From a virus (Duplodnaviria > Caudoviricetes): DNA of 64,000 nt. The position numbers and the translations under genes were made by a program. Of this stretch, positions 1 to 29,330 are shown one piece after another; the stretch's first letter is position 1; the number at the start of each line of letters is the position of its first letter. The notes under the pieces are model-generated. The model ran no database searches. It was given only the letters and a program-made list of their open reading frames with translations, and was not told where the DNA came from. Location of the stretch: the IMG/VR virus record IMGVR_UViG_3300037722_001090; one strand, written 5' to 3'.

Positions 1-2
1 TC

Positions 3-3143: not shown

Positions 3144-3156
3144 ACGGAGTTAACAA

Positions 3157-6100
3157 ATGGCAAACAATCCATACTATGAAGAAAATAGCGGCTTTGGTAG
3201 TGTATTAAAAGGTGCATCTTTTGCTGGCGCAGCTGGTGCATCTTATATGGCATATAAGAACCCTGAAGCTACTACCCGTGTATTTAATCGTGTAGTTAAT
3301 TCTGTTGCACCACTAAAAGCACCTGAGCTTAATCCATATCAAAGCAACATAGTTAGTGCTAGAGAGGCAATCTTCAGTACTATGGAAGCCAGAAATATAC
3401 GTAGAGTAGCTTTAGATAAAGATATGCAAGCAAGAGCTTTACAGACAATCGGTAATGTAAATAACTGGGGTACTGTAAGTGCTGTAGGTGCTGGTATAAA
3501 AGGTGGCAAATCTGATTCATTTAAAAGCCTAACTGATATTCTAGACATAGAAGGTAATGAAATAGGGACAAAAATACATAACGCACTAGAGAAGAGATTT
3601 AATTCTAAAATCGATGCTCCTAAATTTAGTGGAACAAGAGGAACCTGGAAGATAGCAGGAGAAGATTTGTCTATTGATTTCTCTAAAAAAGGACTAGATT
3701 CAGGACTAGGAAATTCATGGTTCAAGCGCGTTGGAGAGTCTTATTATGCTTCACCTTATCAGTCTAAAATGGCTAATCGTGGCGGAGGGAAGCTTGGATA
3801 TGATGTAATGAGTCCAAATGAATTTGTATTAAATGTGCTACAAGAAGAAAATGCTGGGAGTGGAAGACTGGCATATGTAGAGAGTCCTACTAAGTTTAGG
3901 AACGCATATGAAAAGGTAATAGGAGAGAAAGTTACTGGACTAAGTGGACATGACGATGCTGTTAAGTATGCTGTTCAGCAAGTACGTAAAGAAATAGAGT
4001 TAGGATCTAATGCTAGTGTTAGCAATGTAAGAACTATGCAAAAGGCTTTAAAGAAAGTATTTAATACAGATACTATGTTTGTAGAAACTGACCCAGTAAA
4101 GCTTGGCTTATTTGGCAGTGAAGTTCGCGTAGAAGAATATTCTAGATATATACTTGGTAATACAGAACCTGAATTTAAAGGTGTAGGTTCAAACCGCGTA
4201 GGCAGAAACATGAATAGTCTTACAGGAGGAAGCGTAAACATAGAAGGTAATGCACTTAAAGTAGCATATAATATTCCTCATGATGCAAGAACTGATAGTT
4301 CTTTAATTAGGATTGTTAATGGTAGTGGCGCTACGTTGAAAAGTAAAAATGCTACATTTATGCAAAAAATGATGTCTCTGTTTGGTGGATATAGGCTTGG
4401 ACAAGATCCTTCATCTGAATTTGCATGGGCTGTTAGACCTACTGTTCTTCCTGTTATTGCGGAAGGAGATAAGTCTATGAAGGGTGCTTTATGGGCAGAT
4501 GATAATACCGTTATTAGAAAAAATGGCACTCAGGGTATTTCTATGGGAAAGGAATATTTCAGAGGAACAGGAACAAAAAGAATTGAAGCACACAGACTTG
4601 AAACATTAAGGCATATGTCTTTTATTGACGACACTAAGATTACTGAAGCTGCTGCTTCAAGCTCAGATTATGTAAAGGGTAAAATATATTCTCAGCAAAA
4701 TAAAGGCATTTATAATATGACAATGGCTCTTAACCCGTTTTCTGAAGAGTCTATTCAAGTAAGTTCAGGTATGAGTAAGCATATGAAAGTTCTTATTCCA
4801 AAAACAGCTACTGTGGACACAATTGCACTTAAAGGAGAAGAATCGTATAGGAGGTCGCTACTTACACTAATGGATGCAAACGGTGTATTAGATAAGGAAT
4901 CATTTACTATAAAAGAAATAATGGAAAGTAAAGCTTTATCAGAAAGAGTTAGTACTGGTCAATCCAAAATTAAGATAGGAAGAGGGACATATCTAGGCAG
5001 AAAGAACATAGGTATGGAAATATCTAATGCTGAAGACTTTTACTCTACATTTGAAAGAGACGGAGAGATTATTAAAGCAAAAGTAGATATGTATATAGAC
5101 AGTACAGACTTTAATCAAATGGTCGAATCAAATCAAAGAATGATGGGTGAAGGACATAAGCATGCAGGAGGAGTTAAATATATAGCTAAGGCCATGGATG
5201 ACCCTGCTAAAGTTGCACTTACTGGTATAAGAGCCCGTGGAGCTTATGCAGTTGGCGATGACGGATTACTTAATAGTTTATATGCAAGTGCAGGACTAGG
5301 TAATAAGCAAGAAGCTACTATTTCTCTTGGTATGTTTAAAAAAACATTCCCTAAGATTTCTAATAACAGCCTTCTTCTTGGTAAAGATTCACCTGAACTA
5401 TTACACTTTACACAATCTGCACTTGGATGGCAATCCTTACAAAGTAGCATGGATATAACATTAAGTAAAAATGCCGCTGATCATTTTGTCGGTAAATACG
5501 TAAATGATGCATCAAAAGTATTAGGCAATCAAGATTATTATACTGGAAGAGGTGCATCTAAAAAGTTTAGCTTTAGTAAGGCTATGCGAGATGGAGCAAT
5601 ATCTTTTACTCAAAGAACAGAATCAGATGCTGCATTTGCACAGCAATATCAAGACACTGTACAGGTGCTTGGTACTGCGCGAAGAGAATGGGGTAATAAT
5701 CGTAAAGTTGCACACATAGAAAGCTTCTCTACGACTAATGCTAAAGATGCTGCTAAAGTTATAGATAATCAAATTGAAGCAATAGACAATATGGGCAAGC
5801 TTGCAAAAGGTGAATATGCTGTAAGGCTATTTAATAAACAGGTAGATGCAAAAGAGCTTGGAGAACAAGCCTTAGTTAGGACAAGAGTATCACAAGGTAG
5901 TAGTGCTGGTCTTGGATCGACAAAAGCACTCACAATGGGTATTCTTGGAGGACTTCAACCTCAGGAACAAAACTGGCTAGCTCTTGGTGGTGAATTTAAT
6001 AAGATGCGTATTTCATGGAGAGATATGTATCACTTTACAGACAAGGCAGATATACTAAGAGATATTTCAGTTAGAAGCTTAACAGATGCAGATACTAGCG

Positions 6101-8646
6101 CAACTATGATTAAGCTAATGAGTGACTCTGCTGTAGGGCATAATGTTACTTCTGCTGTTAATGCATTTGAGAAGAAATATGGTAAAATTCCAAAACTAAA
6201 AAAGACAGAAGAGATTTTGGAAATGATAGGTGGTGATGCCGCTATGGTTCCAGGTGCTATTAGAGATCCTGAATTCTTAGCAACAAAAAGCTTCTTAGGT
6301 AATAAAAAGAATGAGTTCGGTTTTATGGTCGAAATGGGTGAGCGTAATGTTTATATTCCAGGTAGAGATGTTTGGAAAGGATATGCAACTGATGAGGGGA
6401 TGGCTACATTTGATTCTTTATTTGCAGAAACTCATAACTTACTTTTGAATAAAGCTCTAGGATCGAACATACATCAAGATAGAGATGAGTACCAAAATTG
6501 GGTTAAAAGAATAATCAATGAAACAGGAAGCTCAAAAGAAGGACTACAAAGAACAATTTCATTATCTATTGACCATGCAGTTGCTGCAAAACATATAGAA
6601 GATCCATCGTTTATTCATAATAAAATTATGATTGGTGCTATGGAGAGCTGGAAAGGTAATGCAGACAAGAAGTTAATTCCTGGATATGTAGCAAAAGCAG
6701 AAGCTCTAGAAAATACATTTGGTAATATAGCTAAAATCGGAGAAAAAGATTTTAGTTCAAGTATTAAACAGCTTATAACTGACACTAAGACAATAGCTAG
6801 TAGCCCTGGAAGCAGACAGACAATGCAAGAGGTTCTTACCTCACAATATGGTGAAGATCATTTTCTACAAAAGTATGCAAATAGGATGAGTGCAAACATG
6901 GACAAGGAAGGTGTAGCCAGTCTTGTTAAGGATATTACAACGGATCATGTTGCTAGTAGTAAGCTACTTATGAGCAAAATAAAAGAATATGCATCAACAG
7001 GGAATGAGTCTTTATTTGGAGAGATAGACACGCTTGTAGGAGGTGCACATAAGATTTTTGCCGTTAGACATCCTACACTTTATACTGGATCTTATTCAGG
7101 ATTAATAGCTCTTATTGATAGTCAAATTGAAGGAACACAAAAAATAGCAATAGCACACAGAGCTAGTAAAAATATGGCGTCGGACTGGGACGGAGATACA
7201 ATTAACTATGTTGACCTTAGATCTAAACTGGGAAGACAAAAAGCATTGAATCTTATTAATACGGATCAGAAAATTGCATATGGTGTAATGAGTTCTAAAG
7301 TGCAAGACAGAATGACTGGAATTTTAACTGGCAAAGGAACTAATGCTCCATCCGAGGCCCTTGCTTTTTTTAACTCACTAGACTCCCCTGCAGCACTAAA
7401 TACAGTAGCTAAAAATATTTTACATGATGCTCCTGGCTCAACAGCTATTTCATCGTATTTTACTAAAGCAATGACCGGTCAATTTAATATCTCTGCAATG
7501 GAAACAAAAAACTATATAAGAGATTTATCTGATAGTAAAAACTTATCACAAGAGCATATGAAAGAGCTAGGTCACTACTTTGGAGTAATGGCATCTAAGA
7601 ACTCTGAGCAGGAAGTAATCTCAGCTAAGCATGCAGAGACATGGCTTAAGAATATGAACAAAAGTGAAAGTAAGATGAACTATCTTACTAATTTAATAGG
7701 CGCTCAATCTGGACAAGAACAAATAGCGGAGTCTATTAGAGAGCTTGGATCAGTACATCCTATTGCTCAGATGGCAGCAATGAACGCCAAAGGTAAAGAT
7801 AATGAGAAGTTTGCTGGTATGGTTTCTGACTTTATGGATTTTAAGGTAGGATGGAAACAGCTTGAGCAGCCAAGATTCGAAACTATGTGGGAAGGACTAG
7901 GTCTTGAAAAATCTCATGGAGTTAATACCTCAGCAGCTTGGGACATGTACGACTCTTGGTTAAAAGAAGGTGAACATATTTTTGGTAATAAAATGGAATC
8001 TTCTGTTGCCGCTGGTATATCAGAACTCAGCTATTTAGAAGTTACTAAGCAGGCAATGTTTGATAAGAGATCTTCTGCAAGTGAAAGTATAGAGGCCATG
8101 TTTAGCCGTGCATTAGAGTTTATGAAAATGAGCGATAATGATAGGGCTGGAGATGCTGCAATGGGCGTATTAGATAAGCTCGGATATAGGAAAACAGCAC
8201 TACAGATGCTCACTTTACATGAGCAACAATCAAATATGGCACAAGCAACTCGCAAGATAGCTGGCTTTGATACAGTATCTAAAGCAGCACAGTGGATGGT
8301 AGAAAAACCTGTTAGATTAGCTGGAGCTGTAGGTATTGGCTTATTAGGCATGACTGCAATTAACCTACTAAGCGGAGATGGTGGCCTTGAAGATCCAAAT
8401 GATTTACCTAGTGTTAGTAATCCGGCATTTACAGGCGGTGGTGGAAATGGTATGATGAATACACATGGAGTCCAGCCACACGTAGGCGTAAACGCTAATG
8501 TAAACTTATTAACAGACAGTAACGATAATCCACAAAGTGCACTTAGTTACATTTCTAATATGTTTGGCTATAGTCAGGGCAGCGTTGTATCTGTTATGCA
8601 TGATGGTGAAAACCCATACAAAAAAGATATGATGTATTATAATTGA
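3157..8646 (+). CDS. Putative virion-packaged single-chain two-barrel (DPBB) DNA-dependent RNA polymerase, 1829 aa
   Basis: Beta'-like signature AVRHPTLY (7066)...IEG...AIAH...NMASDWDGD (7183-7197) followed by TINYVDLRSKLGRQKALNLI; upstream KEGLQR (6535) switch-2-like motif; candidate beta-barrel lysines GHKHAGGVKY (5158, 5176); GGAG RBS. Confidence 0.8.
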   Translation: MANNPYYEENSGFGSVLKGASFAGAAGASYMAYKNPEATTRVFNRVVNSVAPLKAPELNPYQSNIVSAREAIFSTMEARNIRRVALDKDMQARALQTIGNVNNWGTVSAVGAGIKGGKSDSFKSLTDILDIEGNEIGTKIHNALEKRFNSKIDAPKFSGTRGTWKIAGEDLSIDFSKKGLDSGLGNSWFKRVGESYYASPYQSKMANRGGGKLGYDVMSPNEFVLNVLQEENAGSGRLAYVESPTKFRNAYEKVIGEKVTGLSGHDDAVKYAVQQVRKEIELGSNASVSNVRTMQKALKKVFNTDTMFVETDPVKLGLFGSEVRVEEYSRYILGNTEPEFKGVGSNRVGRNMNSLTGGSVNIEGNALKVAYNIPHDARTDSSLIRIVNGSGATLKSKNATFMQKMMSLFGGYRLGQDPSSEFAWAVRPTVLPVIAEGDKSMKGALWADDNTVIRKNGTQGISMGKEYFRGTGTKRIEAHRLETLRHMSFIDDTKITEAAASSSDYVKGKIYSQQNKGIYNMTMALNPFSEESIQVSSGMSKHMKVLIPKTATVDTIALKGEESYRRSLLTLMDANGVLDKESFTIKEIMESKALSERVSTGQSKIKIGRGTYLGRKNIGMEISNAEDFYSTFERDGEIIKAKVDMYIDSTDFNQMVESNQRMMGEGHKHAGGVKYIAKAMDDPAKVALTGIRARGAYAVGDDGLLNSLYASAGLGNKQEATISLGMFKKTFPKISNNSLLLGKDSPELLHFTQSALGWQSLQSSMDITLSKNAADHFVGKYVNDASKVLGNQDYYTGRGASKKFSFSKAMRDGAISFTQRTESDAAFAQQYQDTVQVLGTARREWGNNRKVAHIESFSTTNAKDAAKVIDNQIEAIDNMGKLAKGEYAVRLFNKQVDAKELGEQALVRTRVSQGSSAGLGSTKALTMGILGGLQPQEQNWLALGGEFNKMRISWRDMYHFTDKADILRDISVRSLTDADTSATMIKLMSDSAVGHNVTSAVNAFEKKYGKIPKLKKTEEILEMIGGDAAMVPGAIRDPEFLATKSFLGNKKNEFGFMVEMGERNVYIPGRDVWKGYATDEGMATFDSLFAETHNLLLNKALGSNIHQDRDEYQNWVKRIINETGSSKEGLQRTISLSIDHAVAAKHIEDPSFIHNKIMIGAMESWKGNADKKLIPGYVAKAEALENTFGNIAKIGEKDFSSSIKQLITDTKTIASSPGSRQTMQEVLTSQYGEDHFLQKYANRMSANMDKEGVASLVKDITTDHVASSKLLMSKIKEYASTGNESLFGEIDTLVGGAHKIFAVRHPTLYTGSYSGLIALIDSQIEGTQKIAIAHRASKNMASDWDGDTINYVDLRSKLGRQKALNLINTDQKIAYGVMSSKVQDRMTGILTGKGTNAPSEALAFFNSLDSPAALNTVAKNILHDAPGSTAISSYFTKAMTGQFNISAMETKNYIRDLSDSKNLSQEHMKELGHYFGVMASKNSEQEVISAKHAETWLKNMNKSESKMNYLTNLIGAQSGQEQIAESIRELGSVHPIAQMAAMNAKGKDNEKFAGMVSDFMDFKVGWKQLEQPRFETMWEGLGLEKSHGVNTSAAWDMYDSWLKEGEHIFGNKMESSVAAGISELSYLEVTKQAMFDKRSSASESIEAMFSRALEFMKMSDNDRAGDAAMGVLDKLGYRKTALQMLTLHEQQSNMAQATRKIAGFDTVSKAAQWMVEKPVRLAGAVGIGLLGMTAINLLSGDGGLEDPNDLPSVSNPAFTGGGGNGMMNTHGVQPHVGVNANVNLLTDSNDNPQSALSYISNMFGYSQGSVVSVMHDGENPYKKDMMYYN

Positions 8647-8653
8647 GGTAGAT

Positions 8654-11600
8654 ATGGCAATTTCTAATAAAGAGTTTATTGATGTGCTTAAAGCAGAAGG
8701 CTTATGGCCACCACAGGCAAATGCTGAAGCAGCATATGGAGCAGTTGAGTTTCCAGTAGGAAAACTTAAAATTGATGGAGATGCCTCTTTTACATCTATT
8801 TATGTAATGGACGGAGATACCATTGAGTTACATAAGCCCGGATATGTATTTAGTACAACAGGAGATCATGGCACAGTACCCGCCGAAGGCATGGATGGCA
8901 TGGCAACCTCTCTTCGTTATTATGGCTTAGATACAAAAGAGACAGCAAAAGAGGGCACAGGTAAAGCTGCAGAGCCATATGCTAATTGGCAAACTAGGGC
9001 AAACTTAGCCTTATTTAAATATGCAGAAAGAACAGGTAAAAATGTTGATGTTACTGGATACAATCAAGATGCTTACAAGAGAACAGTTGCTGCAATAAAT
9101 ATTGATGGTACGGATGTAGCTGATCTCTTTGTACGAAATGGTATATCTGCCGCAGGTACCGCCGCAGAAGCAGGCTTTGTACCTGAAGGGGGGATAACTG
9201 TTCGCTCACTGCAAGAATCAATGAATGAGGCAGCAACTAAAGGCTGGGGTCTATGGAATAAAAATCAAATTTATGATGTCTTAAGAGATGTAAATAAAGA
9301 GACTGAATATCTTGATGGTTATATTAATGATCGATTTGGTAAAGCTAAAAGCATGACAGACGATACTGTTAAGCTTGGAGACGTATATCTTGATATACCT
9401 CCTACACACATAAGTATTAATCAGTTAAGAACATCATATTCTACACCACAATTTGGTGGCGAATCAAAGCCAACATCTACAAGTACAGCGCGAACAACTA
9501 TAAAGCTAAACCTTATTTTTAATGGTGAAGACTCAGTAAACGATGATTTTAAAAGAATCTATTGGCAGTTTATCTATTGTCCAATTAACTTACTGTATTC
9601 AAAAGATATATACGAGAAGGTTGTTTCAGATAATCCTTATATAGCTAGGATGAATACTGCCACAATTAACACTGAAGAATCGTCTTCTTCTAAGTCATCT
9701 TCGTATTTTATCCCTGTAACTATGGATAGTTGGACCGTATATACTATTGAGGGTCATCCAGGGTCTATTGGATGTACAATACAGCTATCTATCTTTAACT
9801 ATTCTGCATACTTTGAAGGTGCAGGTAATGGCGTTGAATACTATACATATAGTGATAATCCAGGAAAGCATGGTAATGCAGTTAGATACACTAAGCACCT
9901 AGAAGAAGCTATTCACCCATATAACCAATATATCATGAAGCACCTCGGTAATAGCATTCAGCACTTTGATGCATCAGATAGTCGCACTCTTATTTTTAAG
10001 GTTGAAGATAATAAATCTAGATTTGAAGGTAAACAAGAAGATATTAATGAGGATGTTTCAGATTTATCTGAATATCTAAAAGTTATACTTGAATCAGAAG
10101 TTGATGAATTAATGGTTAATGGTTCTGTAACTTTTCATAATAACTTTGCATGGTTACCAATTATAGGATATACGCAACCAACAGCACAGTATATTGGTCC
10201 TGGTGAAACCAATATGTCACTAAGTATTAGAACTAAAAACAATAAAACCATATCAGGACTATTAGCAACATTTGGTGAAATGGTTCTTGATAGAACTAAA
10301 CATACATACTATGATGATAGATACTTAGTGTCCAACTCGCTGTCTAGGCTATGTAAGGCTTCTGTTTGTTCACTACGTAATATCTCAATTACAAACGTAG
10401 ATCATCACCCAGGATGGTCCGATATTAATATTCAGCTCTCTAAGTCTTCCTATGCAGATCATCAGGATGAAGTAAACCCAGCTGCAGAATTTGATGAATA
10501 TTTTGGACTACAAAGGTTGATTAAAGCTGCAAATGTAGATGAGGTTATGGAGGCTCTTGAAAGAGAACTTAAACTAGCTGACATGACAGATATATCTCTT
10601 CCTGCAGAAGATGATTTGCTAGGACAAATGTGTATACTCTCTGGTATAATAAATGCACATTCATACATTAGTGATGAAGCATACCTTGGGTACAATGAAA
10701 TACTTTCTAATATACGTGCTTTTAAAGCAACTATTAATGATAAAGACATGAAAGAGCTTGGATTTTCTAAGCCTCTTATGGGAGACATAAAAAGTCTAGA
10801 GGTAAAAGGTACGGACATAATTGATCGTATGTTCATTCAGTCTCTACCTATATCTGTAAAATCTGACCCTAAACAAATGAAAGCAATAGTTGATTTCGAA
10901 ACATACTATAATGCTAAGAAAAAAGCAGGTGTTGTTAATGAATTTGATTCTTTTGAAAGCGCACTTAGAGGAGATAATTCTAAAGAGGGTTTTGAATTAA
11001 GAGCAGAGATGATAGATAGGTATTTACCTCTTGATGAAATGATAGATATGACAGGTACTAAAAATAAAATAGTAGATGTAAATAAACACCTATTTAATGC
11101 CTGGGAAGAGTATTGGGGAGATAGACATACAGTAAGGTCGCTAAGCAGTGTATATATAAAAGATTTATTAGCTAGTGGTGTGGACACATCAGTATATGAT
11201 GAAGAAATGGAAAATATAGTATATAGGATACTTAGATCCATATCTAATGAAGGCATGATGTTAAGTTACCAGAAGGCTTGGAATCCGCTAGCTCTTTCAA
11301 TGGCTCGTGGTCATGCAATTGTTTTTAAGTTTACTGGTACAATATTAGAAGCACAAATAATTAAAGCAGCCCTTAGGGTTGGAGATGAGACATCATCTAT
11401 AATTGGAGAGGCAGCTAGTTTTGGTACGCATGGATCTAAAGCAAGAAAGTTTTTTAGTTTACAAAACAATGTTAAATATCCATCTATTTCAGTAAAGTTA
11501 ACTTGTCATAATAAGGATGTTGCATATAGTGAATATAGCACTAGTATGTCAGAGGCATCAAAAGAGGCATCATGGTCTTTAGCTACTGCGTTTAGAGCTA

Positions 11601-14600
11601 AAAAAAGTAATGATGCTATATCTAGCTTTACGGGTAATGATAAGATTAACCAATCAGAAGTAAGTAAAGAGCTAGCTCTTTTGCGCGAGGATATGGAAGA
11701 TGTTGCTTTTAGCAGAATACCTATGCCTCATGCAGCACATAGATACTTTCCTTTTATAGATCAGTATATTAAACATAGCGAGCTTTTCTCTGCAAGCATG
11801 GGTGATTGGTTTAGAAATACAGCAGAAGACGATCCTTATTCATTTTTTGAAGAAGTAAGCGAAACTGTTGAAAATTCAGTATCACCGCTCATGAACAATA
11901 AGGGGTGGACATCAACTTATCTTCAAAAAAGATATGGAAATACATATATAAACAAAATCAATGAAGATATTAATGACCCATCTAAAATAATGGAAGCACT
12001 TTCTTTACCTGTATCATCGAAGGATTCAAGCGATAGAAATAAAGATGGATCACTTGCAAGACTTAAAGACGGTAAGATGGATACATCTATGCCTAAATTT
12101 AGTAAAGATATGGTAACAGACTTGCTTGGTAACTATAAGTATGATGAAGACATTGACAATAAGCCATATAGTGGAACTGTTCATTCAGGAGTATTTATTG
12201 CAGGATTCTATGATGGTGCAAAAGATGGTAAGAGAGCAAAAGATTTTAGACAAAATACATATGATACACATTCTATATGGCTTGATAGTGACGGTGCAAT
12301 AAGCGGTCTTTATAATAAGCTAAATAGAAATCAATTAGTACCAAACGGAAACATGTTAGTAGAGGCTTCAGAAGCTCGCGAAACTAATGTTGCCTCAACA
12401 TTAATTAATGGTGTAGGAAGAAGTTTAGCTGGTCCAATAGATACATCAGTTAAGTATGCTGGTGTATTTAAATCAACATCACTTATAATGGCGCTTAATA
12501 AAAATCCTAAGATGTTCATGATAGAAACAGATAGGATACCTCCAGCACAATTTGCTCTTGGTCCAGATAGTGGACTTAATATTGTTCAGGCTGATGAAAA
12601 AATATTGACTATGTTTGTTAGAGCTATTACATCTATACATAAAGGTGGCAGTGCTACAGATTATAAGAATATTGGATGGTCAGATCGTGCATCTAGACAT
12701 TATGCTAAGGTTTTAGTTGCAGAAATTAAAACTAAATTAAGAGCAAGTGGATATTCAGACAGTTGTATTTACTATGCTAAGCAATCAGAAGTTTCTGCTT
12801 TTGTAGCACAGAAAGAAGCTATATCATATGAGGAAGGTGCACCAGAAGAAATCTTTATGAGGGCACTAAGATTAAGAGCTGACAGTAATTTGCCTGTAGC
12901 TGACTTTGTTGATGATCATACAAAAAATATAGTTGCAAGACAATCTATGGCTTCATTAATGTCAACTACATGTTTAGAGAATGCTTTCCCTACTTATAAG
13001 CTATACATTATTGAAGAAGATACATCTGACATTAGGTATTTTTCACTAGACGATTATTATGATCTAAGAACAGCACAAGACTTAATGATTATAAAATCAA
13101 AAGATAATCCAGTACATATTCTAAAAGGTAGAATAATAGTAGATCCAAGATACATAACTGTTACAGATAAGGTAAAACAAAAAGTATCAAAATACAATGA
13201 AGATAGTGAACATGAACTAAATGAGCCATCATTACAGTTTATTGATACTAGGCTTGAAAACTACTTCAATAAAGGTTTTACACCTTTAAGAGAAGGTATG
13301 CGAGTTTGCGTTAAGCTTGGATATCATACTGATCCAAGAATGCTTGATACAATATTTATTGGTACTATTACTGGATTAAAAGGTAACATGACTTCTGGTG
13401 TATATGAACTTGAAGCAAAAGGTGATGGAAGAGAATTATTATCTCCTCCTAGTCCAGAGCTAAGGCCTAACGTAAGTGGTAAGAACTTTGCAGAGGTAAT
13501 ATCAAAGATACTTAGAACTAATCCAAGTATTATTCACTTTGGTAAAACATATGGATCTTTCATTGAAAAATTCTCTAGAGATCACTATACATTACTTGCA
13601 ATAGCTAAGAATGGACTTCTGCAAGGAAGCTCAATGGCAGGTGGTGGACTAATGGGCACAATTGCAGTATCATTGTCAATGGCATCTCCACAGAGAGCTA
13701 TGTATAAGGTTGGAGCTAGAGTAATTGCTGGAATAGTAGGTATAGGTGCTGGTGGACTTATGGCTCAACTATACAGCCCAGTACCATATAGTTTAATACA
13801 GAAAAGTAGAGATAAGTTTAAGCACGAAGCATTAGCGCAGTATAGTGGACATATATTCAAAGGGCTTTGGTTTTCAGAGGAGTTTAAAGCTGCAAACTTT
13901 TCACAAGCAAAAAAATGGATTCAAGGACATACATTCGATCCAGCAAAAGCGGCAAGAGAGGTTGCAGAGATATCTTACAATACACTTAAGTATGGTAATG
14001 ATCCTATTGATGACAATATATTAGCAGTTGATATTTGGCAAACAGGAATGACTCCATGGAAAACATTCAATATGCCTGTTAATGGAGCAAGAACCGTATG
14101 GGACATTCTTGTAGATATAAAAAGAATGTATCCTAACTTTGCACTAGACATTAGGCCATATGGCAATAGATCAACATTATTTATGGGGCCTTATGAGTCT
14201 GAAATGTGGAGAACAGATGACCCTCTACAGGCAATGGCTCCACAGTTATATCAAATGAGCAACGGAGCACCTTGGGCAGATGGACAGGCTTACGCTGAGC
14301 ATACTAAGGCTGCTATTGAAAATATGGTTACTAGAGATCAGTTTCATAATGCTACTCCAAATACACGTAATATAGCGCCTAGAGAGCCATTCCAAAGAAC
14401 ACACTTAGTGTCTTCCTTTAGCGATATAATTATGAATGGAGTTAGATCTACACCATATAGGGGATGGAACGATGTAATAGTTTCTTACTCTAAAGATCCA
14501 GATGATGATGATTCGCCTCCAATTGTAAATCAAGTTGTTAATGCACAGCTAGATCCTAAAGCTAAAAGGACAAAGTATGTAAACCTTGACTGGACAAATG

Positions 14601-16069
14601 ATAAGCAAATGGCTAATGCATATGCTTTAGGTTTCCTTAAAGAAGGTGTTGGTAAAATGTACGGAGGGACACTAAGCATTAGAGGTAACTCTAAAGTTGA
14701 ACCACACGATAAAGTATATATTTGCGATTCAGTTAATAAAATGTTTGGATGGATAGAAGTAGAAACAGTAATACATAAGCTAGACATGAATACTGGATTT
14801 ACTACACATATTGTTCCAAACATGGTATGTTCAATTAATGATGATGCCTATACAACAACAAGTCAGTTGTTCCGTAAGAAAATGCTTGGCAGTGTAGCTA
14901 AATTAATTTTACATACAGCAGCCGCTTATCCTGCAGGTATTGCACTGACTGCCGTGTTAGCGCCAGTATTAGGCTCTGCCGCATTTATAGTCGGTATTGT
15001 ACTTGGTACAGCTGCTCTTGGATATACTGTGTATCAATCAGCCAGTGCAATAAAAAGTAAAGCTGAAGCTATTATGACCGAGGCTACAGCTAACGGACTT
15101 ATAAAAGAAGAACAGGAGTATATTCAGCATAAGCTTCAAAACATACTAATGGTGTCTACTATGAAGTCATCTTTCGATTTGGGTATATTCTCACACTATG
15201 TATTGAAGTTTACTGGCGGACCAGGTAACATTAAAAGGAATGTTCTTGCATACACAACTAATACGGCAGAAAGAGCAGCGCTTATAGAAAAGGTTTCAGC
15301 GGGATCTAAGGCAAGGTTTGCAGTTGCAAGCAATTATATAGCTAAGCTCAGCAATAAAACTGGTGTTACCTCTACATCAAAAATGAAGAAAATACTAGAT
15401 GATGCAGCTAAAAAAATGGGAAGAGCTCCAATTAACTTTGACGACTACGAAGTAAAAATGGCTGCTGCTGTAACACCAGAAGAAAGAGTTCTTCAAAGAA
15501 AGATGTTAGCTATAGAAATTGAAGATTTAGTTAAAGAAGCAGCTAATGATTTTTCTGACGATGTTAAGACTAAAATTACAAGCACAATAAACGATCCTGC
15601 TGCACTAGATAAACTAACAAACTCTTCAGTCATTGAACCTGAGATACCAAAAGCAGGAGATGGTAAGGTTAATACTAGAGCTGCCGCAGCTAAGCCATTT
15701 AAGCCAATAGCAACCAAAGCTAATCTAAAAATAGCAGCTGGTGGATTCTTAGCCTTCCTAGCACTTGGAGCCGAGTTATTACCTTTAGGTTTTGAAACTA
15801 TTGCTATGAATGCAATGCTTAAGTCTAATGTAATATTTTGTTCACCATTAACACACAAGTCAAGTCAAATGATGACTGGACTAGAAGGCTATATTAATCA
15901 GTCTTCTTATCTACACCTAGGAAGTATGATTATTCATGCTAAGGACTTTATGAATGATGCTATTGATTCTGTTAGGAATTGGGACCAGGTAGTACAAATA
16001 GGTGACTCTTCATATTCTAAACTTACAAATGTGTTCGGTAGATCAGTTGATGATCAGGGAGGTATGTAA
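8654..16069 (+). CDS. Baseplate hub-like (T4 gp27/Mu gp44/P2 gpD-type) protein with N-terminal thermonuclease (SNase) domain, 2471 aa
   Basis: N-terminus has DGDT (D53,D55), LRYYGLDTKE (R88,D93,E96), DAYKR (R143), DVADLFVRNG; later hub-type strands MRVCVKLGY...IFIGTITGL...LEAKGDG and GTLSIRGNSKVEPHDKVYI...IEVETVIHKLDMNTGFTTHI; immediately upstream of spike/gp25/gpJ genes. Confidence 0.7.
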   Translation: MAISNKEFIDVLKAEGLWPPQANAEAAYGAVEFPVGKLKIDGDASFTSIYVMDGDTIELHKPGYVFSTTGDHGTVPAEGMDGMATSLRYYGLDTKETAKEGTGKAAEPYANWQTRANLALFKYAERTGKNVDVTGYNQDAYKRTVAAINIDGTDVADLFVRNGISAAGTAAEAGFVPEGGITVRSLQESMNEAATKGWGLWNKNQIYDVLRDVNKETEYLDGYINDRFGKAKSMTDDTVKLGDVYLDIPPTHISINQLRTSYSTPQFGGESKPTSTSTARTTIKLNLIFNGEDSVNDDFKRIYWQFIYCPINLLYSKDIYEKVVSDNPYIARMNTATINTEESSSSKSSSYFIPVTMDSWTVYTIEGHPGSIGCTIQLSIFNYSAYFEGAGNGVEYYTYSDNPGKHGNAVRYTKHLEEAIHPYNQYIMKHLGNSIQHFDASDSRTLIFKVEDNKSRFEGKQEDINEDVSDLSEYLKVILESEVDELMVNGSVTFHNNFAWLPIIGYTQPTAQYIGPGETNMSLSIRTKNNKTISGLLATFGEMVLDRTKHTYYDDRYLVSNSLSRLCKASVCSLRNISITNVDHHPGWSDINIQLSKSSYADHQDEVNPAAEFDEYFGLQRLIKAANVDEVMEALERELKLADMTDISLPAEDDLLGQMCILSGIINAHSYISDEAYLGYNEILSNIRAFKATINDKDMKELGFSKPLMGDIKSLEVKGTDIIDRMFIQSLPISVKSDPKQMKAIVDFETYYNAKKKAGVVNEFDSFESALRGDNSKEGFELRAEMIDRYLPLDEMIDMTGTKNKIVDVNKHLFNAWEEYWGDRHTVRSLSSVYIKDLLASGVDTSVYDEEMENIVYRILRSISNEGMMLSYQKAWNPLALSMARGHAIVFKFTGTILEAQIIKAALRVGDETSSIIGEAASFGTHGSKARKFFSLQNNVKYPSISVKLTCHNKDVAYSEYSTSMSEASKEASWSLATAFRAKKSNDAISSFTGNDKINQSEVSKELALLREDMEDVAFSRIPMPHAAHRYFPFIDQYIKHSELFSASMGDWFRNTAEDDPYSFFEEVSETVENSVSPLMNNKGWTSTYLQKRYGNTYINKINEDINDPSKIMEALSLPVSSKDSSDRNKDGSLARLKDGKMDTSMPKFSKDMVTDLLGNYKYDEDIDNKPYSGTVHSGVFIAGFYDGAKDGKRAKDFRQNTYDTHSIWLDSDGAISGLYNKLNRNQLVPNGNMLVEASEARETNVASTLINGVGRSLAGPIDTSVKYAGVFKSTSLIMALNKNPKMFMIETDRIPPAQFALGPDSGLNIVQADEKILTMFVRAITSIHKGGSATDYKNIGWSDRASRHYAKVLVAEIKTKLRASGYSDSCIYYAKQSEVSAFVAQKEAISYEEGAPEEIFMRALRLRADSNLPVADFVDDHTKNIVARQSMASLMSTTCLENAFPTYKLYIIEEDTSDIRYFSLDDYYDLRTAQDLMIIKSKDNPVHILKGRIIVDPRYITVTDKVKQKVSKYNEDSEHELNEPSLQFIDTRLENYFNKGFTPLREGMRVCVKLGYHTDPRMLDTIFIGTITGLKGNMTSGVYELEAKGDGRELLSPPSPELRPNVSGKNFAEVISKILRTNPSIIHFGKTYGSFIEKFSRDHYTLLAIAKNGLLQGSSMAGGGLMGTIAVSLSMASPQRAMYKVGARVIAGIVGIGAGGLMAQLYSPVPYSLIQKSRDKFKHEALAQYSGHIFKGLWFSEEFKAANFSQAKKWIQGHTFDPAKAAREVAEISYNTLKYGNDPIDDNILAVDIWQTGMTPWKTFNMPVNGARTVWDILVDIKRMYPNFALDIRPYGNRSTLFMGPYESEMWRTDDPLQAMAPQLYQMSNGAPWADGQAYAEHTKAAIENMVTRDQFHNATPNTRNIAPREPFQRTHLVSSFSDIIMNGVRSTPYRGWNDVIVSYSKDPDDDDSPPIVNQVVNAQLDPKAKRTKYVNLDWTNDKQMANAYALGFLKEGVGKMYGGTLSIRGNSKVEPHDKVYICDSVNKMFGWIEVETVIHKLDMNTGFTTHIVPNMVCSINDDAYTTTSQLFRKKMLGSVAKLILHTAAAYPAGIALTAVLAPVLGSAAFIVGIVLGTAALGYTVYQSASAIKSKAEAIMTEATANGLIKEEQEYIQHKLQNILMVSTMKSSFDLGIFSHYVLKFTGGPGNIKRNVLAYTTNTAERAALIEKVSAGSKARFAVASNYIAKLSNKTGVTSTSKMKKILDDAAKKMGRAPINFDDYEVKMAAAVTPEERVLQRKMLAIEIEDLVKEAANDFSDDVKTKITSTINDPAALDKLTNSSVIEPEIPKAGDGKVNTRAAAAKPFKPIATKANLKIAAGGFLAFLALGAELLPLGFETIAMNAMLKSNVIFCSPLTHKSSQMMTGLEGYINQSSYLHLGSMIIHAKDFMNDAIDSVRNWDQVVQIGDSSYSKLTNVFGRSVDDQGGM

Positions 16070-16443
16070 TGAGTGACTTAAGAGATTTAGATAGTGGAGT
16101 AAATGAAGCTAAAGGAGATATCGGTAGGTGGCAAGGCATAAATAGTCAGGCCAGACAAGTCTCAATAGCAGAAGTAGTAAGTGAAGATACTTCAAAAAAT
16201 ATCTTTATTATCTACTTTAAGGATGATAAAGTTGAGGTTCCTGCAGTATTGTTGGGGAACCTCAACGGAATCATTGGATCAGCTACTCCAGAGGTTGGAG
16301 AGTTAGTATTAGTGGTGCATAATGAAACATCAGATGCTATAATTATTGGACTATTGGATAAGCAAAGATCTATTCCATGGGCAGATAACAGTAAGTCAAG
16401 TGCATATAATAAAAATGGCATTATAGGTGCAATGGGGAATTAA
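16069..16443 (+). CDS. Baseplate spike OB-fold protein (gp5/gpV N-terminal-like)
   Basis: VSIAEVVSED...TPEVGELVLVV...IIIGLL pattern of gpV OB-fold; follows hub with TAATG overlap. Confidence 0.6.
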   Translation: MSDLRDLDSGVNEAKGDIGRWQGINSQARQVSIAEVVSEDTSKNIFIIYFKDDKVEVPAVLLGNLNGIIGSATPEVGELVLVVHNETSDAIIIGLLDKQRSIPWADNSKSSAYNKNGIIGAMGN

Positions 16444-16445
16444 TA

Positions 16446-16841
16446 ATGACAATTAAGAATACAGAACTCAGCAGCTTTGGCACACAAAACGACAAACAAG
16501 ATCCTAGTCAAGCTCCTATGGTAAATCCGGATTTAGATGAAAGAAAGATATCAACACGCACTGGTAATGCACAAATTATTATTAAAGATAATATATTGCT
16601 ATTATCAAATAGAGCTAATGGAATAATGATTAATGAAAGAGGAACAGTTGTATGTAATCCCTTACATATAGCAACAGATCCATCTACTACTAGGATAAAC
16701 TCATTCTGGGTAATTAATGACGAAATTATGACAGGATTACCATCAACAATTTATACACCAATGCCATTATTAAAATATAAACGTCCCGCAATAGCAGATC
16801 AGATTTCTGATTTAGCAAAAAAGCTTGCTGCAATAGGATAA
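16446..16841 (+). CDS. Putative spike-associated beta-strand protein
   Basis: Short beta-strand repeats (TGNAQIIIKDNILLLSNRANGIMINERG); lies between OB-fold gene and gp25-like gene. Confidence 0.35.
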   Translation: MTIKNTELSSFGTQNDKQDPSQAPMVNPDLDERKISTRTGNAQIIIKDNILLLSNRANGIMINERGTVVCNPLHIATDPSTTRINSFWVINDEIMTGLPSTIYTPMPLLKYKRPAIADQISDLAKKLAAIG

Positions 16842-16843
16842 GC

Positions 16844-16853
16844 GTTATTAACA
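16844..16853 (+). promoter_or_regulatory. GTTAWTAACA element (candidate late promoter)
   Basis: GTTATTAACA in intergenic space, 18 nt before ATG 16872; same motif recurs before other late genes and intron ORFs. Confidence 0.5.
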
Positions 16854-16871
16854 AATAGTCAGGAGTAAACA

Positions 16872-17273: not shown

Positions 17274-17274
17274 T

Positions 17275-18489
17275 ATGGCTACCTACAAAGATAAGCAAGA
17301 CAGAATTTTAAAGGTTATGTCAGAGAGAGCTGGATTTTCTAGCCTAGTACCTGGCACAAAAGGCTATCAACTAGCAGAGGCGTTTGCATATGAACAAATG
17401 TTACAAGAGTCTGAAATTGAAGAGTTTACTAGAAAAAATAGTATCTTAACTGCTAAAAAGCAAGAGCTTGATGATATTGGTGAGAATTTTTTTAACGTTA
17501 AGAGACTTGGAAATATTAAACCTTTTATTACGTCATCAATGAAAGCACTTAAGTTTTACGTTGATACAGCTCAGTCATTTGGCCAAATAAATGTCATAAA
17601 GCAGGCAGGCATTGAAATACCTCAAGACATTATAATCCCAGAAGGTGTAATTATAAGTGGCACAAAAGATGGTATTGATTATAAGTTTAGAGTTTCAAAA
17701 ACAACGATATTACCTAAAGATGATAATGTAGCATACGTGCAAGCAGAGTTAATGCAAGGTCCACTTGCACAGATACCAGCGAACATATTAAAGATGCATA
17801 GTTTTACTAAATATACACAAGCAACAAGTAATATGCTTAAGGTTACAAATCCAGTTCCAGTTATGAATGGAAGGCAATCAGAGAGTGATGATAACTATAG
17901 GTTTAGAGTCTCTAATGCATTAAGTGCATTTCCAAGAACAAACACAACAGCTATACATCAATTACTAACTGAACTTCCAGCTATATCTAACGTATATATA
18001 GAGCCATCATCTAATGGTGGTGGAACATTTACTGTATATGTACAAGGTACAACACCAATTACTGGGGATGAAATAATCCGTGAAGCAGAGATGGTTCTTG
18101 AGCGAGTTATTAGTCCATGGATAGTATCTTATACTGTAGTTAAGCCAAGTTATATTGGTATTCAGGCATCTATAGATATGGTTCTTAGAGATAGTTTTAA
18201 CTCCAATATTACGTCTTTAATATCTCAAAAGGTAACTAATTATCTTGATAACTTTGATGGGGATACATTTTATATAAACTCCATATTAAGTCTTGTACAA
18301 GGGATGCATCAAGATATACTAGATGTATCATTTAACTATGTTAGGGTTTATTCTGGGTCAGAAGATATAAGATCTTATGAGGAATTAGACTTTACCGTAA
18401 ATCCAAACCCCATAATTAGCATTAGTATTAAAGAGAAGTTAATTTCAGAGCCTATCTCTAATCCAATTACATTAACTATAACGGTTTAA
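17275..18489 (+). CDS. Baseplate J-like wedge protein
   Basis: IIIPEGVIISG...YKFRV; VTNPVPVMNGRQSESDDNYRFRV (E-S-D-x-x-Y-R-x-R motif); GTFTVYV. Confidence 0.85.
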   Translation: MATYKDKQDRILKVMSERAGFSSLVPGTKGYQLAEAFAYEQMLQESEIEEFTRKNSILTAKKQELDDIGENFFNVKRLGNIKPFITSSMKALKFYVDTAQSFGQINVIKQAGIEIPQDIIIPEGVIISGTKDGIDYKFRVSKTTILPKDDNVAYVQAELMQGPLAQIPANILKMHSFTKYTQATSNMLKVTNPVPVMNGRQSESDDNYRFRVSNALSAFPRTNTTAIHQLLTELPAISNVYIEPSSNGGGTFTVYVQGTTPITGDEIIREAEMVLERVISPWIVSYTVVKPSYIGIQASIDMVLRDSFNSNITSLISQKVTNYLDNFDGDTFYINSILSLVQGMHQDILDVSFNYVRVYSGSEDIRSYEELDFTVNPNPIISISIKEKLISEPISNPITLTITV

Positions 18490-18491
18490 AT

Positions 18492-29051: not shown

Positions 29052-29330
29052 ATGAATAACGATTATTATGTAGAGCAAGACTTTAACTTGGATGCACAGT
29101 TAATTCAACCAAGTATTAAGACACAGGTACTTAATGGTATAAAACAAAGAATTACAGATCAATATTTAAGTACTGAAAACAAAGATATATTAGCTGTATT
29201 AGATGCGCAGACACAGATAATAGAAGATGCATATAAGATAGATATGTATAAGTTCCAATTCAAGCTATTAATTAACATCTTAAATAAAGAGCTTGATAAT
29301 ATAAAAACAATCCTACTATATGAAATGTAA
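29052..29330 (+). CDS. Hypothetical helical protein
   Basis: 92-aa ORF in operon. Confidence 0.4.
   Translation: MNNDYYVEQDFNLDAQLIQPSIKTQVLNGIKQRITDQYLSTENKDILAVLDAQTQIIEDAYKIDMYKFQFKLLINILNKELDNIKTILLYEM

What the first reader, a model, noticed from the sequence alone, without database searches (positions are those of the whole stretch)
8790..9260. Apparently intact thermonuclease domain fused to the N-terminus of a giant baseplate hub protein
Seen: DGDT, R88, D93-x-x-E96 and R143 reproduce the staphylococcal nuclease catalytic set (D19/D21, R35, D40, E43, R87). The C-terminal half has hub-type strands and three long hydrophobic Gly/Ala segments (around VIAGIVGIGAGG, AGIALTAVLAPVLGSAAFIVGIVLG, GGFLAFLALGAELL). 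Established: the hub/spike is driven into the cell envelope on sheath contraction, and evolved VgrG proteins carry effectors this way. Inference: a virion-delivered nuclease, perhaps for host DNA/RNA degradation, clearing extracellular DNA in biofilms, or genome-end processing, possibly with membrane-inserting helices forming an entry channel.
Basis: partly seen in the sequence, partly recalled or inferred. Interest (0 to 1): 0.75.

Follow-up and report, generated by a model that had tools for sequence, protein, structure and literature searches.

The report
Nuclease domain on giant phage baseplate hub
The tail-tip hub protein of an uncultured sediment jumbo phage starts with a staphylococcal-type nuclease domain whose active site looks intact, but this arrangement was noted in related phages in 2007 and its role has never been tested.

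Summary
ORF 8654-16069 (+, 2471 aa) opens with a staphylococcal-nuclease (SNase) domain at residues 37-202. It scores 26.1 bits on Pfam PF00565 (cut-off 21). The predicted fold matches S. aureus nuclease at Z about 13 over about 130 of 135 residues. A family profile matches SNase at E = 3e-14. D53/D55, R88, D93, T94, E96 and R143 match SNase D19/D21, R35, D40, T41, E43 and R87.

The rest of the protein is a baseplate hub. Residues 237-603 form a duplicated tail-tube fold. Residues 1444-2063 form a Mu gp44 / T4 gp27-type hub fold (Z up to 21.6). Three hydrophobic segments are conserved in position. A baseplate J gene lies downstream.

This is a new member of the giant "hyperplastic hub" family of Bacillus phage 0305phi8-36. 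Hardies et al. (2007) already reported an N-terminal SNase domain there. Cultured phages ME3 and WH1 carry one too, and this scan has noted SNase-bearing hubs in at least six other genomes.

Added here: among 22 full-length members the intact SNase set occurs in every major branch, and it has decayed at least four times. Most relatives end in swappable cell-wall hydrolases, but this protein and its sister have none. The function is untested. My best guess is a Ca2+-dependent nuclease that acts outside the cytoplasm.

The parts
8645..8648 (+). GAGG Shine-Dalgarno-like site. It overlaps the TGA stop (8644-8646) of the upstream 1829-aa gene and lies 5 nt before the ATG at 8654, which suggests translational coupling.
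   Evidence: Read directly from the sequence; ORF list.
8654..16069 (+). Giant baseplate hub gene, 2471 aa (P0001). It is one uninterrupted ORF.
   Evidence: An identical protein, P0002, is in JGI data. P0003 (40% identity) aligns end to end and lies in a fully syntenic locus, L003.
8762..9259 (+). SNase (thermonuclease) fold, residues 37-202, with D53/D55, R88, D93, T94, E96 and R143.
   Evidence: Pfam 26.1 bits against a cut-off of 21. Fold match Z about 13, rmsd 2.8-3.0 A, about 130/135 residues. Profile against PDB SNase E = 3e-14. Residue table.
8834..8905 (+). Insertion of 24 residues (61-84) in the beta2-beta3 hairpin of the SNase fold. It is predicted disordered and is absent in the sister protein P0003.
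   Evidence: pLDDT below 50 at residues 69-82; alignment A1.
9362..10462 (+). Duplicated tail-tube-like beta-sandwich module, residues 237-603. It is the most conserved N-terminal block of the family.
   Evidence: VIA Z 13.8 with 235 residues aligned to HFTV1 tail chain 9fkb_BA. Foldseek hits to T5 tail tube and tip chains 7qg9_A and 9iny_A, E about 2e-6. 41 invariant columns in A1, almost all within residues 225-621.
10571..12913 (+). Middle region, residues 640-1420. It is variable, with weak conservation around 876-1285, and has no recognised fold or family.
   Evidence: BLAST map. No Pfam or PHROG hit. The ESM Atlas feature search gave nothing at 0.9 or above. This region was not folded.
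12983..14842 (+). Hub fold of the Mu gp44 / P2 gpD / T4 gp27 type, residues 1444-2063. It is interrupted by a Gly/Ala-rich hydrophobic insertion of about 150 residues (about 1645-1790).
   Evidence: VIA Z 21.6 to 3d37_B (296/316 residues), 19.4 to Mu gp44 1wru, 18.4 to the R2 pyocin hub, 15.3 to T4 gp27 1k28_D. Foldseek E 1e-10 to 1e-7. tblastn to the hubs of phages WH1, Edson, KLEB27-3 and ME3. The A2 HMM hits WH1 gp094 at 2e-41 and ME3_37 at 6e-36.
13709..13777 (+). Hydrophobic Gly/Ala segment 1, residues 1686-1708, inside the insertion in the hub fold.
   Evidence: Kyte-Doolittle 19-residue window above 1.5. A segment at equivalent alignment positions occurs in 17 of the 24 aligned sequences.
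14903..15022 (+). Hydrophobic segment 2, residues 2084-2123. It is long enough for two helices and lies directly after the last hub strand.
   Evidence: Present at this alignment position in 23 of 24 family members.
15725..15802 (+). Hydrophobic segment 3, residues 2358-2383, followed by a conserved C-terminal block (about 2377-2450). The protein then ends. No C-terminal peptidoglycan hydrolase follows.
   Evidence: Relatives continue for 170-500 more residues. Where scanned, those extensions are SLT, glucosaminidase, NlpC/P60 or Phage_lysozyme2 domains.
17275..18489 (+). Baseplate J-like wedge gene. It serves as the context marker for the baseplate module.
   Evidence: PHROG 6, E = 4e-23. Pfam Baseplate_J 54.6 bits.

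Best explanation
ORF 8654-16069 encodes the central baseplate hub of an uncultured sediment/soil jumbo myophage of the 0305phi8-36 lineage. It is a member of that lineage's giant modular hub family.

Shown here:
- A gp27 / Mu gp44-type hub fold (1444-2063) and a duplicated tube-fold module (237-603) make up the structural core.
- An SNase-fold domain with the complete Ca2+-binding and catalytic residue set sits at the N-terminus.
- Three hydrophobic segments are conserved in position.
- Unlike nearly all relatives, the protein has no C-terminal cell-wall hydrolase.

Inferred:
- The SNase domain is an active Ca2+-dependent endo/exonuclease carried in three copies at the tail tip.
- Staphylococcal-type nucleases need roughly millimolar Ca2+ (textbook knowledge). 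The domain should therefore be silent in the cytoplasm while the virion is assembled. It should become active only outside the cytoplasm, in the extracellular matrix or the cell envelope, during adsorption or penetration.
- There it would cut extracellular or surface-bound DNA or RNA that hinders access.
- The fold probably also has a structural role in the hub, because the domain is kept in place in lineages that have lost the catalytic residues.
For: Identity as a hub:
- Fold matches of Z 15-21.6 cover nearly whole hub chains, with supporting Foldseek hits.
- Sequence homology to the hub proteins of cultured phages. ME3_37 is annotated as a homologue of the 0305phi8-36 hub. WH1 gp094 is annotated as a virion structural protein.
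- The gene order giant, giant, hub, small genes, baseplate J is shared.
- Hardies et al. 2007 assigned gp147 as a T4 gp27 homologue.

SNase domain:
- Pfam score above the cut-off, fold match at Z about 13, profile E = 3e-14 with the catalytic columns aligned.
- The D-x-D, R, D, E and R set is complete in 8 of 22 full-length family members and differs at one position in 4 more, at 17-37% domain identity.
- In a tree of the hub region these forms lie in every major branch. This points to an ancestral domain kept under selection.

Site of action: this rests on the established Ca2+ requirement of SNase, not on a test made here.

Structural role: 10 of 22 members keep the N-terminal domain in place with degenerate catalytic residues.
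Against: - No activity, virion location or stoichiometry was measured.
- No equivalents of the SNase nucleotide-stacking tyrosines Y113/Y115 were found (alignment), and K84/Y85 appear as Y141-K142.
- A 24-residue disordered insertion lies in the hairpin next to the Ca2+ site.
- At least four lineages lost the catalytic set, so the activity is dispensable for the hub.
- The domain sits directly before a tube-fold ring. It could therefore be buried in the baseplate or the lumen, with no access to matrix DNA before contraction.
- The 12 sequences used for the profile were picked because they have the motif, so their invariant columns are partly circular.
Confidence: 0.5

Rival explanations
1. The SNase fold is mainly a structural or nucleic-acid-binding OB-fold module of the hub, with no catalysis that matters for infection. 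It could, for example, be an assembly plug or a contact for the tape-measure protein or the DNA end. On this view the intact-looking residues are a leftover.
For: Ten of 22 family members keep a domain of the same size in the same place with the catalytic residues gone, in at least four independent lineages. No equivalents of SNase Y113/Y115 were found. OB-folds are used structurally in hub-spike complexes, for example the N-terminal domain of T4 gp5 (textbook knowledge).
Against: The full D-x-D, R, D, T, E and R set is conserved between proteins that share only 17-37% identity in this domain, and it occurs in every major branch of the family. Neutral decay would not be expected to preserve it. 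Cultured phage ME3 carries a strong SNase domain (53 bits) at a different position in its hub. That argues the enzyme, not a particular structural contact, is what is recruited.
Confidence: 0.2
2. The SNase domain is an injected effector. It would leave the virion with the tail-internal proteins encoded by the two upstream giant genes and degrade host, or competing, DNA or RNA inside the cell or periplasm. The hydrophobic segments would help to form the entry channel.
For: Three conserved hydrophobic segments are present. The upstream 1829-aa gene carries a DWDGD motif, and an earlier scan note reads it as a virion RNA polymerase (unverified by me). There is a precedent for an enzyme fused to a tail-internal protein: the tape-measure-fused virion RNAP gp96 of P23-45 (PMC10770324). 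Evolved VgrG spikes deliver fused nucleases (textbook knowledge).
Against: Canonical SNase needs Ca2+ far above cytoplasmic levels. The domain is covalently joined to two ring-forming structural modules that have to stay at the tube tip or fall away as a block. A nuclease travelling in the same channel as the phage genome would endanger that genome. No cleavage site or delivery signal was identified.
Confidence: 0.15
3. The domain cuts a phosphodiester polymer that is not a nucleic acid, such as a teichoic-acid or phosphodiester-linked capsule backbone. It would then stand in for the missing cell-wall hydrolase.
For: P0001 and P0003 are the only family members without a C-terminal extension. 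No clear virion-associated wall hydrolase was found in the tail module. The stacking tyrosines that hold the base in SNase have no detected equivalents.
Against: I know of no SNase-family member with such a substrate. SNase and wall hydrolases occur together in at least eight relatives, so SNase is not in general a replacement for them. The host and its envelope type are unknown.
Confidence: 0.05

Closest known systems
Hub protein gp147 of Bacillus thuringiensis phage 0305phi8-36 and its BtI1/BwK1 prophage homologues, the 'hyperplastic homologue of T4 gp27' (Hardies, Thomas & Serwer 2007, Virol J 4:97, PMC2147016)
   Same: [quoted passage not shown] Both sit after a giant tape-measure-position gene and before the gpV/gpJ-like genes, and both have exchangeable enzyme domains at the ends. 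The BtI1 homologue has an N-terminal staphylococcal-nuclease domain.
   Different: I did not align P0001 directly with gp147 or BtI1; the link runs through ME3_37 and WH1 gp094. gp147 itself has an N-terminal transglycosylase plus C-terminal NlpC and M23 domains. P0001 has only the SNase domain and no wall hydrolase. P0001 comes from an uncultured sediment/soil phage with about 33-38% GC and an unknown host.
Acinetobacter phage vB_AbaM_ME3 gp37 ('baseplate hub protein', AND75198.1) and Bacillus phage vB_BceM_WH1 gp094 ('virion structural protein', BCO16147.1)
   Same: These are cultured-phage members of the same hub family: tblastn 26% identity over about 300 residues, and the A2 HMM at E 6e-36 and 2e-41. 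Gene order is the same. Both carry an SNase domain.
   Different: In ME3 the SNase domain (53 bits) is internal, at 1126-1241, and is followed by Peptidase_M23. In WH1 only a partial N-terminal SNase match (175-263) is seen. Identity to P0001 outside the hub core is too low to align.
Staphylococcus aureus thermonuclease (Nuc; PDB 1stn, 1snc, 1ey0)
   Same: The fold matches (Z about 13, about 130/135 residues, 25-28% identity). The residues matching D19, D21, R35, D40, T41, E43 and R87 are all present.
   Different: Nuc is a secreted stand-alone enzyme. Here the domain is the first 8% of a structural virion protein. It has a 24-residue hairpin insertion and no detected equivalents of Y113/Y115.
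Mu gp44 / P2 gpD / T4 gp27 baseplate hubs and the gp27-like part of T6SS VgrG
   Same: The four-domain hub fold matches at Z 15-21.6. Like 'evolved' VgrGs and T4 gp5, the central tail-tip complex carries a fused enzyme.
   Different: Those hubs are 320-390 residues long (VgrG 600-900). In evolved VgrGs the effector is at the C-terminus after a beta-helical spike. Here the enzyme is N-terminal, the region after the hub fold is predicted helical and hydrophobic, and the spike is presumably a separate small gene.
Thermus phage P23-45 gp96, a tape-measure protein fused to a virion RNA polymerase (PMC10770324)
   Same: It is a precedent for a nucleic-acid enzyme fused to the N-terminus of a giant tail protein that also has membrane segments and, in relatives, a wall hydrolase.
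   Different: It is a different protein class (tape measure, not hub), a different enzyme, and a siphovirus. Its activity and presence in virions were shown experimentally.

Membership tests
SNase / thermonuclease (Pfam PF00565) | Sequence match above the curated family threshold | tested here: met
   26.1 bits against a gathering cut-off of 21, residues 87-202, profile positions 2-106 of 107. A family profile hits S. aureus nuclease at E = 3e-14.
SNase / thermonuclease (Pfam PF00565) | OB-fold beta-barrel packed against three helices | tested here: met
   The AF2 model has pLDDT mostly 70-90 in this domain. VIA Z 12.8-13.3, rmsd 2.8-3.0 A, about 130 of 135 residues of many SNase entries. This rests on a predicted structure, not a solved one.
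SNase / thermonuclease (Pfam PF00565) | Ca2+ ligands D21, D40 and T41, plus D19 | tested here: met
   D55, D93, T94 and D53, by the family alignment and the profile alignment to SNase.
SNase / thermonuclease (Pfam PF00565) | Catalytic and phosphate-binding residues R35, E43 and R87 | tested here: met
   R88, E96 and R143.
SNase / thermonuclease (Pfam PF00565) | Nucleotide-binding residues K84, Y85, Y113 and Y115 | tested here: inconclusive
   Y141-K142 precede R143, in the reverse order to K84-Y85. No tyrosines are aligned to Y113/Y115 in the phmmer alignment. That loop region is gapped and no residue-level structural alignment was available.
SNase / thermonuclease (Pfam PF00565) | Ca2+-dependent hydrolysis of DNA and RNA | not testable with these tools
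   This needs an enzyme assay.
Baseplate hub (T4 gp27 / P2 gpD / Mu gp44 type) | Four-domain hub fold with two tube-like barrels | tested here: met
   Model residues 45-664 of the segment, equal to protein residues 1444-2063. Z 21.6 (3d37_B, 296/316 residues), 19.4 (Mu gp44 1wru, 299/325), 15.3 (T4 gp27 1k28_D, 320/364). The model's overall pLDDT is only 53, but 70-83 in the beta parts that align.
Baseplate hub (T4 gp27 / P2 gpD / Mu gp44 type) | Gene position between the tape-measure-position gene and the spike/gpW/gpJ baseplate genes | tested here: met
   Baseplate J-like gene at 17275-18489, with three small genes in between. The layout is the same in ME3, WH1 and L003. The small genes themselves gave no family hits apart from one weak PHROG match of unknown function for 16872-17273 (E = 5.5e-4).
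Baseplate hub (T4 gp27 / P2 gpD / Mu gp44 type) | Trimer at the tube tip, present in virions | not testable with these tools
   Indirect only. The WH1 homologue is annotated as a virion structural protein. 0305phi8-36 gp147 is treated as a virion protein in PMC2147016.
0305phi8-36 gp147-type giant modular hub | More than 2000 aa, with the gp27-type domain only a fraction of the chain and sequence homology to family members | tested here: met
   2471 aa, of which the hub fold takes about 620. 24 giant relatives at E from 0 to 1e-172, plus one distant one (P0026, E = 1.6e-10). HMM hits to WH1 gp094 and ME3_37. ME3_37's annotation cites homology to the 0305phi8-36 hub. No direct alignment to gp147 was made.
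0305phi8-36 gp147-type giant modular hub | Exchangeable enzymatic domains at the termini | tested here: met
   N-terminal SNase is present here. Relatives carry C-terminal SLT, glucosaminidase, NlpC/P60 or Phage_lysozyme2, and these differ even between sister proteins. P0001 itself lacks the C-terminal module.
Evolved VgrG (T6SS spike with fused effector) | gp27-like module fused to a gp5-like OB-fold and a beta-helical spike, with a C-terminal effector | tested here: inconclusive
   VgrG chains align only through their gp27-like part, residues 5-352. The region after the hub fold is predicted helical, but at pLDDT below 50. I do not file P0001 here; it resembles these proteins only in carrying an enzyme on the central tip complex.

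The most novel reading that the evidence does not exclude
The three consecutive giant genes (1-16069) encode one co-ejected nucleic-acid-processing payload. This would be an exonuclease-bearing tape-measure-like protein, a single-chain RNA polymerase and the SNase-bearing hub. On this reading the hub's N-terminal nuclease is released through a channel lined by the conserved hydrophobic segments. It would then destroy host or rival nucleic acids at the entry site while the injected polymerase starts phage transcription. In short, this is a contractile-tail phage whose tail tip is armed against nucleic acids rather than against the cell wall.
Probability: 0.12. Interest if true: 0.75.

Novelty: new member of a known kind. 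Interest (0 to 1): 0.38.

Why it matters
Phage tail tips are known to carry cell-wall hydrolases. Why a whole lineage of jumbo-phage hubs has kept a nuclease for a very long time is an open question. It is nearly 20 years old, and I found no experimental follow-up in the searchable literature.

This protein and its sister are the cleanest cases. SNase is the only recognisable enzyme on the hub, so any tail-tip enzymatic effect should be attributable to it.

If the domain is active, it would be a virion-borne matrix or eDNA-degrading activity, or an injected one. That bears on phage movement through biofilms and sediments and on engineering phages against biofilms.

The family survey offers a natural experiment. 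It shows repeated loss of the active site with the fold kept, and free swapping of the C-terminal lysins. Cultured members (ME3, WH1) make the question testable.

Tried and rejected
- Megablast of 8000-20000 against 50,697 phage records gave no match. The phage has no close cultured relative.
- No whole genome is held for this window.
- Single-sequence phmmer of residues 1-260 against the PDB gave only E = 0.026 and put DGDT in the wrong register. The profile and fold results supersede it.
- phmmer of residues 1700-2200, and of the upstream 1829-aa protein, against the PDB gave nothing useful.
- The search for homologous proteins restricted to residues 35-215 returned only the identical protein. 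This is uninformative, because a short divergent domain cannot reach E <= 1e-3 in a database of 5.8 billion. That search was wasted.
- The ESM Atlas feature search of residues 640-1420 had a best score of 0.77, below the useful range.
- Sequencing runs: no RNA holder is listed, so nothing can be said about expression.
- I tried my SNase-hub HMM on all window ORFs of 80 aa or more. Only P0001 matches at E <= 1. A very degenerate fold would escape this test.
- I considered that P0001 is a tape-measure protein, because hydrophobic Gly/Ala segments and C-terminal lysins in relatives are tape-measure-like traits. I rejected this because of the full hub fold at Z up to 21.6 and the tube-fold module.
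- I considered that SNase replaces the wall hydrolase at the same site. I rejected this: the hydrolases are C-terminal and co-occur with an N-terminal SNase in at least eight relatives.
- PHROG hits (phrog_20474 'endolysin', phrog_8809) cover only residues 1884-2092, inside the hub fold. The 'endolysin' label comes from other domains of those giant family members and says nothing about P0001.
- Complex prediction was not used. A trimer of SNase plus the tube module exceeds the 1000-residue limit.
Full report
WHAT IS THERE

The finding lies at the start of a single 7,416-nt ORF, 8654-16069 on the + strand, encoding 2471 aa (P0001). Its ATG follows a GAGG site that overlaps the stop codon of the preceding 1829-aa gene. 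All large genes from 1 to about 45,000 are on the + strand. The composition is that of a low-GC phage, 30-40% GC.

The window is a phage structural and replication region:
- a baseplate J-like gene at 17275-18489 (PHROG 6, E = 4e-23; Pfam Baseplate_J, 54.6 bits);
- tail-fibre and collar genes at 38203-40032 and 42680-44107;
- ribonucleotide reductase and primase-helicase genes on the minus strand.

There is no near-identical cultured phage. The same DNA occurs in several sediment and soil metagenome runs.

THE NUCLEASE DOMAIN

Coordinates 8790-9260 correspond to residues 46-203. Four lines of evidence identify an SNase domain:
- Pfam SNase (PF00565) matches residues 87-202 at 26.1 bits, above the curated cut-off of 21.
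- An AlphaFold2 model of residues 1-660 was built on 22 family sequences and has mean pLDDT 70.5. Its strand and helix order is that of an SNase. It aligns to dozens of S. aureus nuclease crystal structures at Z 12.8-13.3, rmsd 2.8-3.0 A, over about 130 of 135 residues at 25-28% identity. Model 37-202 corresponds to SNase 8-141.
- A profile of the N-terminal domains of 12 family members hits SNase chains at E = 3e-14. It lines up DGDT, the arginine of strand 3, D-x-x-E and the G-R arginine.
- The same profile retrieves 7077 proteins at E <= 1e-3 from 1.84 billion representatives.

D53/D55 match D19/D21, R88 matches R35, D93 matches D40, T94 matches T41, E96 matches E43 and R143 matches R87.

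Two departures from the staphylococcal enzyme are worth noting. A 24-residue, low-confidence insertion (61-84) sits in the beta2-beta3 hairpin; this is why single-sequence phmmer chose a wrong register. Also, no equivalents of the base-stacking tyrosines Y113/Y115 were seen.

THE REST OF THE PROTEIN

Residues 237-603 are the best-conserved N-terminal block of the family. They fold as a duplicated tail-tube-like module: Z 13.8 over 235 residues to an HFTV1 tail chain, plus Foldseek hits to T5 tail-tube and tip chains.

Residues 640-1420 are variable and unexplained.

A second model covers residues 1400-2471. Its overall pLDDT is 53, but it reaches 70-83 in the beta-rich parts. Protein residues 1444-2063 align almost end to end with baseplate hubs:

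| Structure | Z | Residues aligned |
|---|---|---|
| Neisseria Mu-like tail protein 3d37_B | 21.6 | 296 of 316 |
| Mu gp44 (1wru) | 19.4 | 299 of 325 |
| R2 pyocin hub (6u5h_A) | 18.4 | 309 of 318 |
| T4 gp27 (1k28_D) | 15.3 | 320 of 364 |

The gp27-like parts of VgrG and of eCIS spikes align as well. The hub fold is interrupted by a Gly/Ala-rich hydrophobic insertion of about 150 residues.

They recur at the same alignment positions in most of the family. Whether they enter a membrane is inference.

THE FAMILY

A word-seeded search found 25 giant proteins (1556-3583 aa). They include an identical JGI protein annotated as a thermonuclease-family endonuclease, and P0003, which is 40% identical end to end. 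P0003 lies in a locus with the same gene order as the window.

The conserved blocks are at 225-640, about 1000-1200 and 1420-2450.

Most relatives continue 170-500 residues beyond the point where P0001 ends. Where Pfam recognises the extension, it is a peptidoglycan hydrolase: SLT, glucosaminidase, NlpC/P60 or Phage_lysozyme2. Only P0001 and P0003 lack any extension.

The N-terminal domain is present in all 22 full-length members. The catalytic set is complete in 8, differs at one position in 4, and is degenerate in 10.

A maximum-likelihood tree of the hub region gives three results:
- SNase-intact proteins lie in every major branch.
- The degenerate forms fall in at least four separate places.
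- Sister proteins can carry different C-terminal hydrolases (SLT against glucosaminidase, twice).

The simplest reading has three parts. The SNase domain is ancestral to this family. Its chemistry has been kept under selection in several deep lineages and abandoned in others while the fold stayed. The C-terminal lysin is a freely exchanged cassette that the P0001/P0003 lineage lost.

One caveat applies. I chose the 12 sequences of the SNase profile because they have the motif, so the invariance of the catalytic columns in that alignment is partly by construction. The tree distribution does not have this problem.

LINK TO KNOWN PHAGES AND TO THE LITERATURE

tblastn finds the hub core (1813-2126, about 26% identity) in giant proteins of Bacillus phages WH1, Edson and KLEB27-3 and of Acinetobacter phage ME3. 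A profile of the C-terminal half hits WH1 gp094 at 2e-41 and ME3 gp37 at 6e-36. Both lie in the same gene order.

ME3 gp37 is annotated as a baseplate hub homologous to that of 0305phi8-36. WH1 gp094 is annotated as a virion structural protein. Both carry SNase matches: ME3 has a strong internal one (53 bits, 1126-1241) followed by Peptidase_M23, and WH1 has a partial N-terminal one. A smaller 1512-aa hub (P0062) also has an N-terminal SNase.

Hardies, Thomas & Serwer 2007 (PMC2147016) described 0305phi8-36 gp147 as a 'hyperplastic' homologue of T4 gp27 with exchangeable terminal enzyme domains. They stated that the BtI1 prophage homologue has an N-terminal staphylococcal-nuclease-related domain whose use was 'still obscure'.

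I found no later experimental work on such domains. I reached this paper before opening the scan's notes. Those notes show that the scan has met SNase-bearing hubs in at least six other genomes and reached the same reference.

HOW IT PROBABLY WORKS

Shown: the protein is the central hub, and it carries an SNase fold with a complete catalytic set that is conserved across deep divergence.

Inferred: the domain is an active nuclease present in three copies per virion at the tail tip. Staphylococcal-type nucleases need about millimolar Ca2+ (established biochemistry, not tested here). The simplest model is therefore that the domain is harmless in the cytoplasm during assembly and works only outside it. 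It would act in the matrix or envelope during adsorption or penetration, cutting extracellular or surface-bound nucleic acid.

I put about 0.95 on the anatomy, about 0.7 on catalytic competence and about 0.5 on the whole statement.

The rivals are:
- a purely structural or binding OB-fold (0.2), supported by the repeated loss of the active site with the fold retained;
- an injected effector (0.15), supported by the hydrophobic segments and by the neighbouring genes;
- a substrate that is not a nucleic acid (0.05).

NEIGHBOURS

Earlier notes of this scan (unverified AI notes) read the upstream 1829-aa gene as a single-chain RNA polymerase, and read the first giant gene as an exonuclease-bearing tape-measure-like protein.

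I checked only that the 1829-aa protein contains a DWDGD motif at residue 1343 and has no Pfam or PDB sequence match. The tape-measure-fused virion RNAP of P23-45 is a real precedent (PMC10770324).

If those readings hold, the three giant genes may form one nucleic-acid-directed payload. This is the most novel reading my evidence does not exclude, at about 0.12.

VERDICT

This is a new member of a known kind.

It is a good test case, because SNase is the only recognisable enzyme on this hub. But the arrangement itself has been on record since 2007 and is present in deposited cultured-phage genomes. Interest: 0.38.

Noticed in passing
window 3157-8646 (+): The 1829-aa gene in the usual tape-measure position has no Pfam, PHROG or PDB sequence match, but it contains a DWDGD motif at residue 1343. 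An earlier scan note reads it as a single-chain virion RNA polymerase.
   Followed up: partly
window 3-3143 (+), open at the 5' end: This is the C-terminal 1046 aa of another giant gene. It is about 1951 aa in the syntenic locus L003. There are no family hits, and my SNase-hub HMM finds no SNase-like domain in it at E <= 1.
   Followed up: partly
window 29320-30186 (+): A Cas4-like PD-(D/E)XK nuclease (PHROG 1706, E = 7e-20; Pfam PDDEXK_1, 25.4 bits) sits among baseplate and fibre genes, next to a Kelch-repeat protein (30176-31342).
   Followed up: no
window 42040-42678 (+): A 212-aa protein with an N-terminal signal-peptide-like hydrophobic stretch and a weak CHAP-domain match (22.6 bits, below the cut-off of 26) lies between tail-fibre genes. 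It is the only candidate wall hydrolase I saw in the structural module.
   Followed up: no
window 24578-26899 (+): A 773-aa tail-module protein has an F5/8 type C (discoidin) domain at 28.9 bits. It is a likely carbohydrate-binding receptor-recognition part.
   Followed up: no
P0004/P0007 and P0020/P0021 (relatives, not in the window): Sister hub proteins carry different C-terminal wall hydrolases, SLT against glucosaminidase. The lysin cassette has therefore been swapped recently and repeatedly within the family.
   Followed up: partly
L001:3766-10755 (Acinetobacter phage ME3 gp37): In this cultured phage the hub's SNase domain is internal (1126-1241, 53 bits) and directly precedes a Peptidase_M23 domain (1301-1401). 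The nuclease has therefore been placed at different positions in different hubs.
   Followed up: partly
P0062 (1512 aa, from the profile search): A much smaller hub-family protein also has an N-terminal SNase domain (86-255, 58 bits) together with hub-core matches. The nuclease-hub combination therefore reaches beyond the giant forms.
   Followed up: partly
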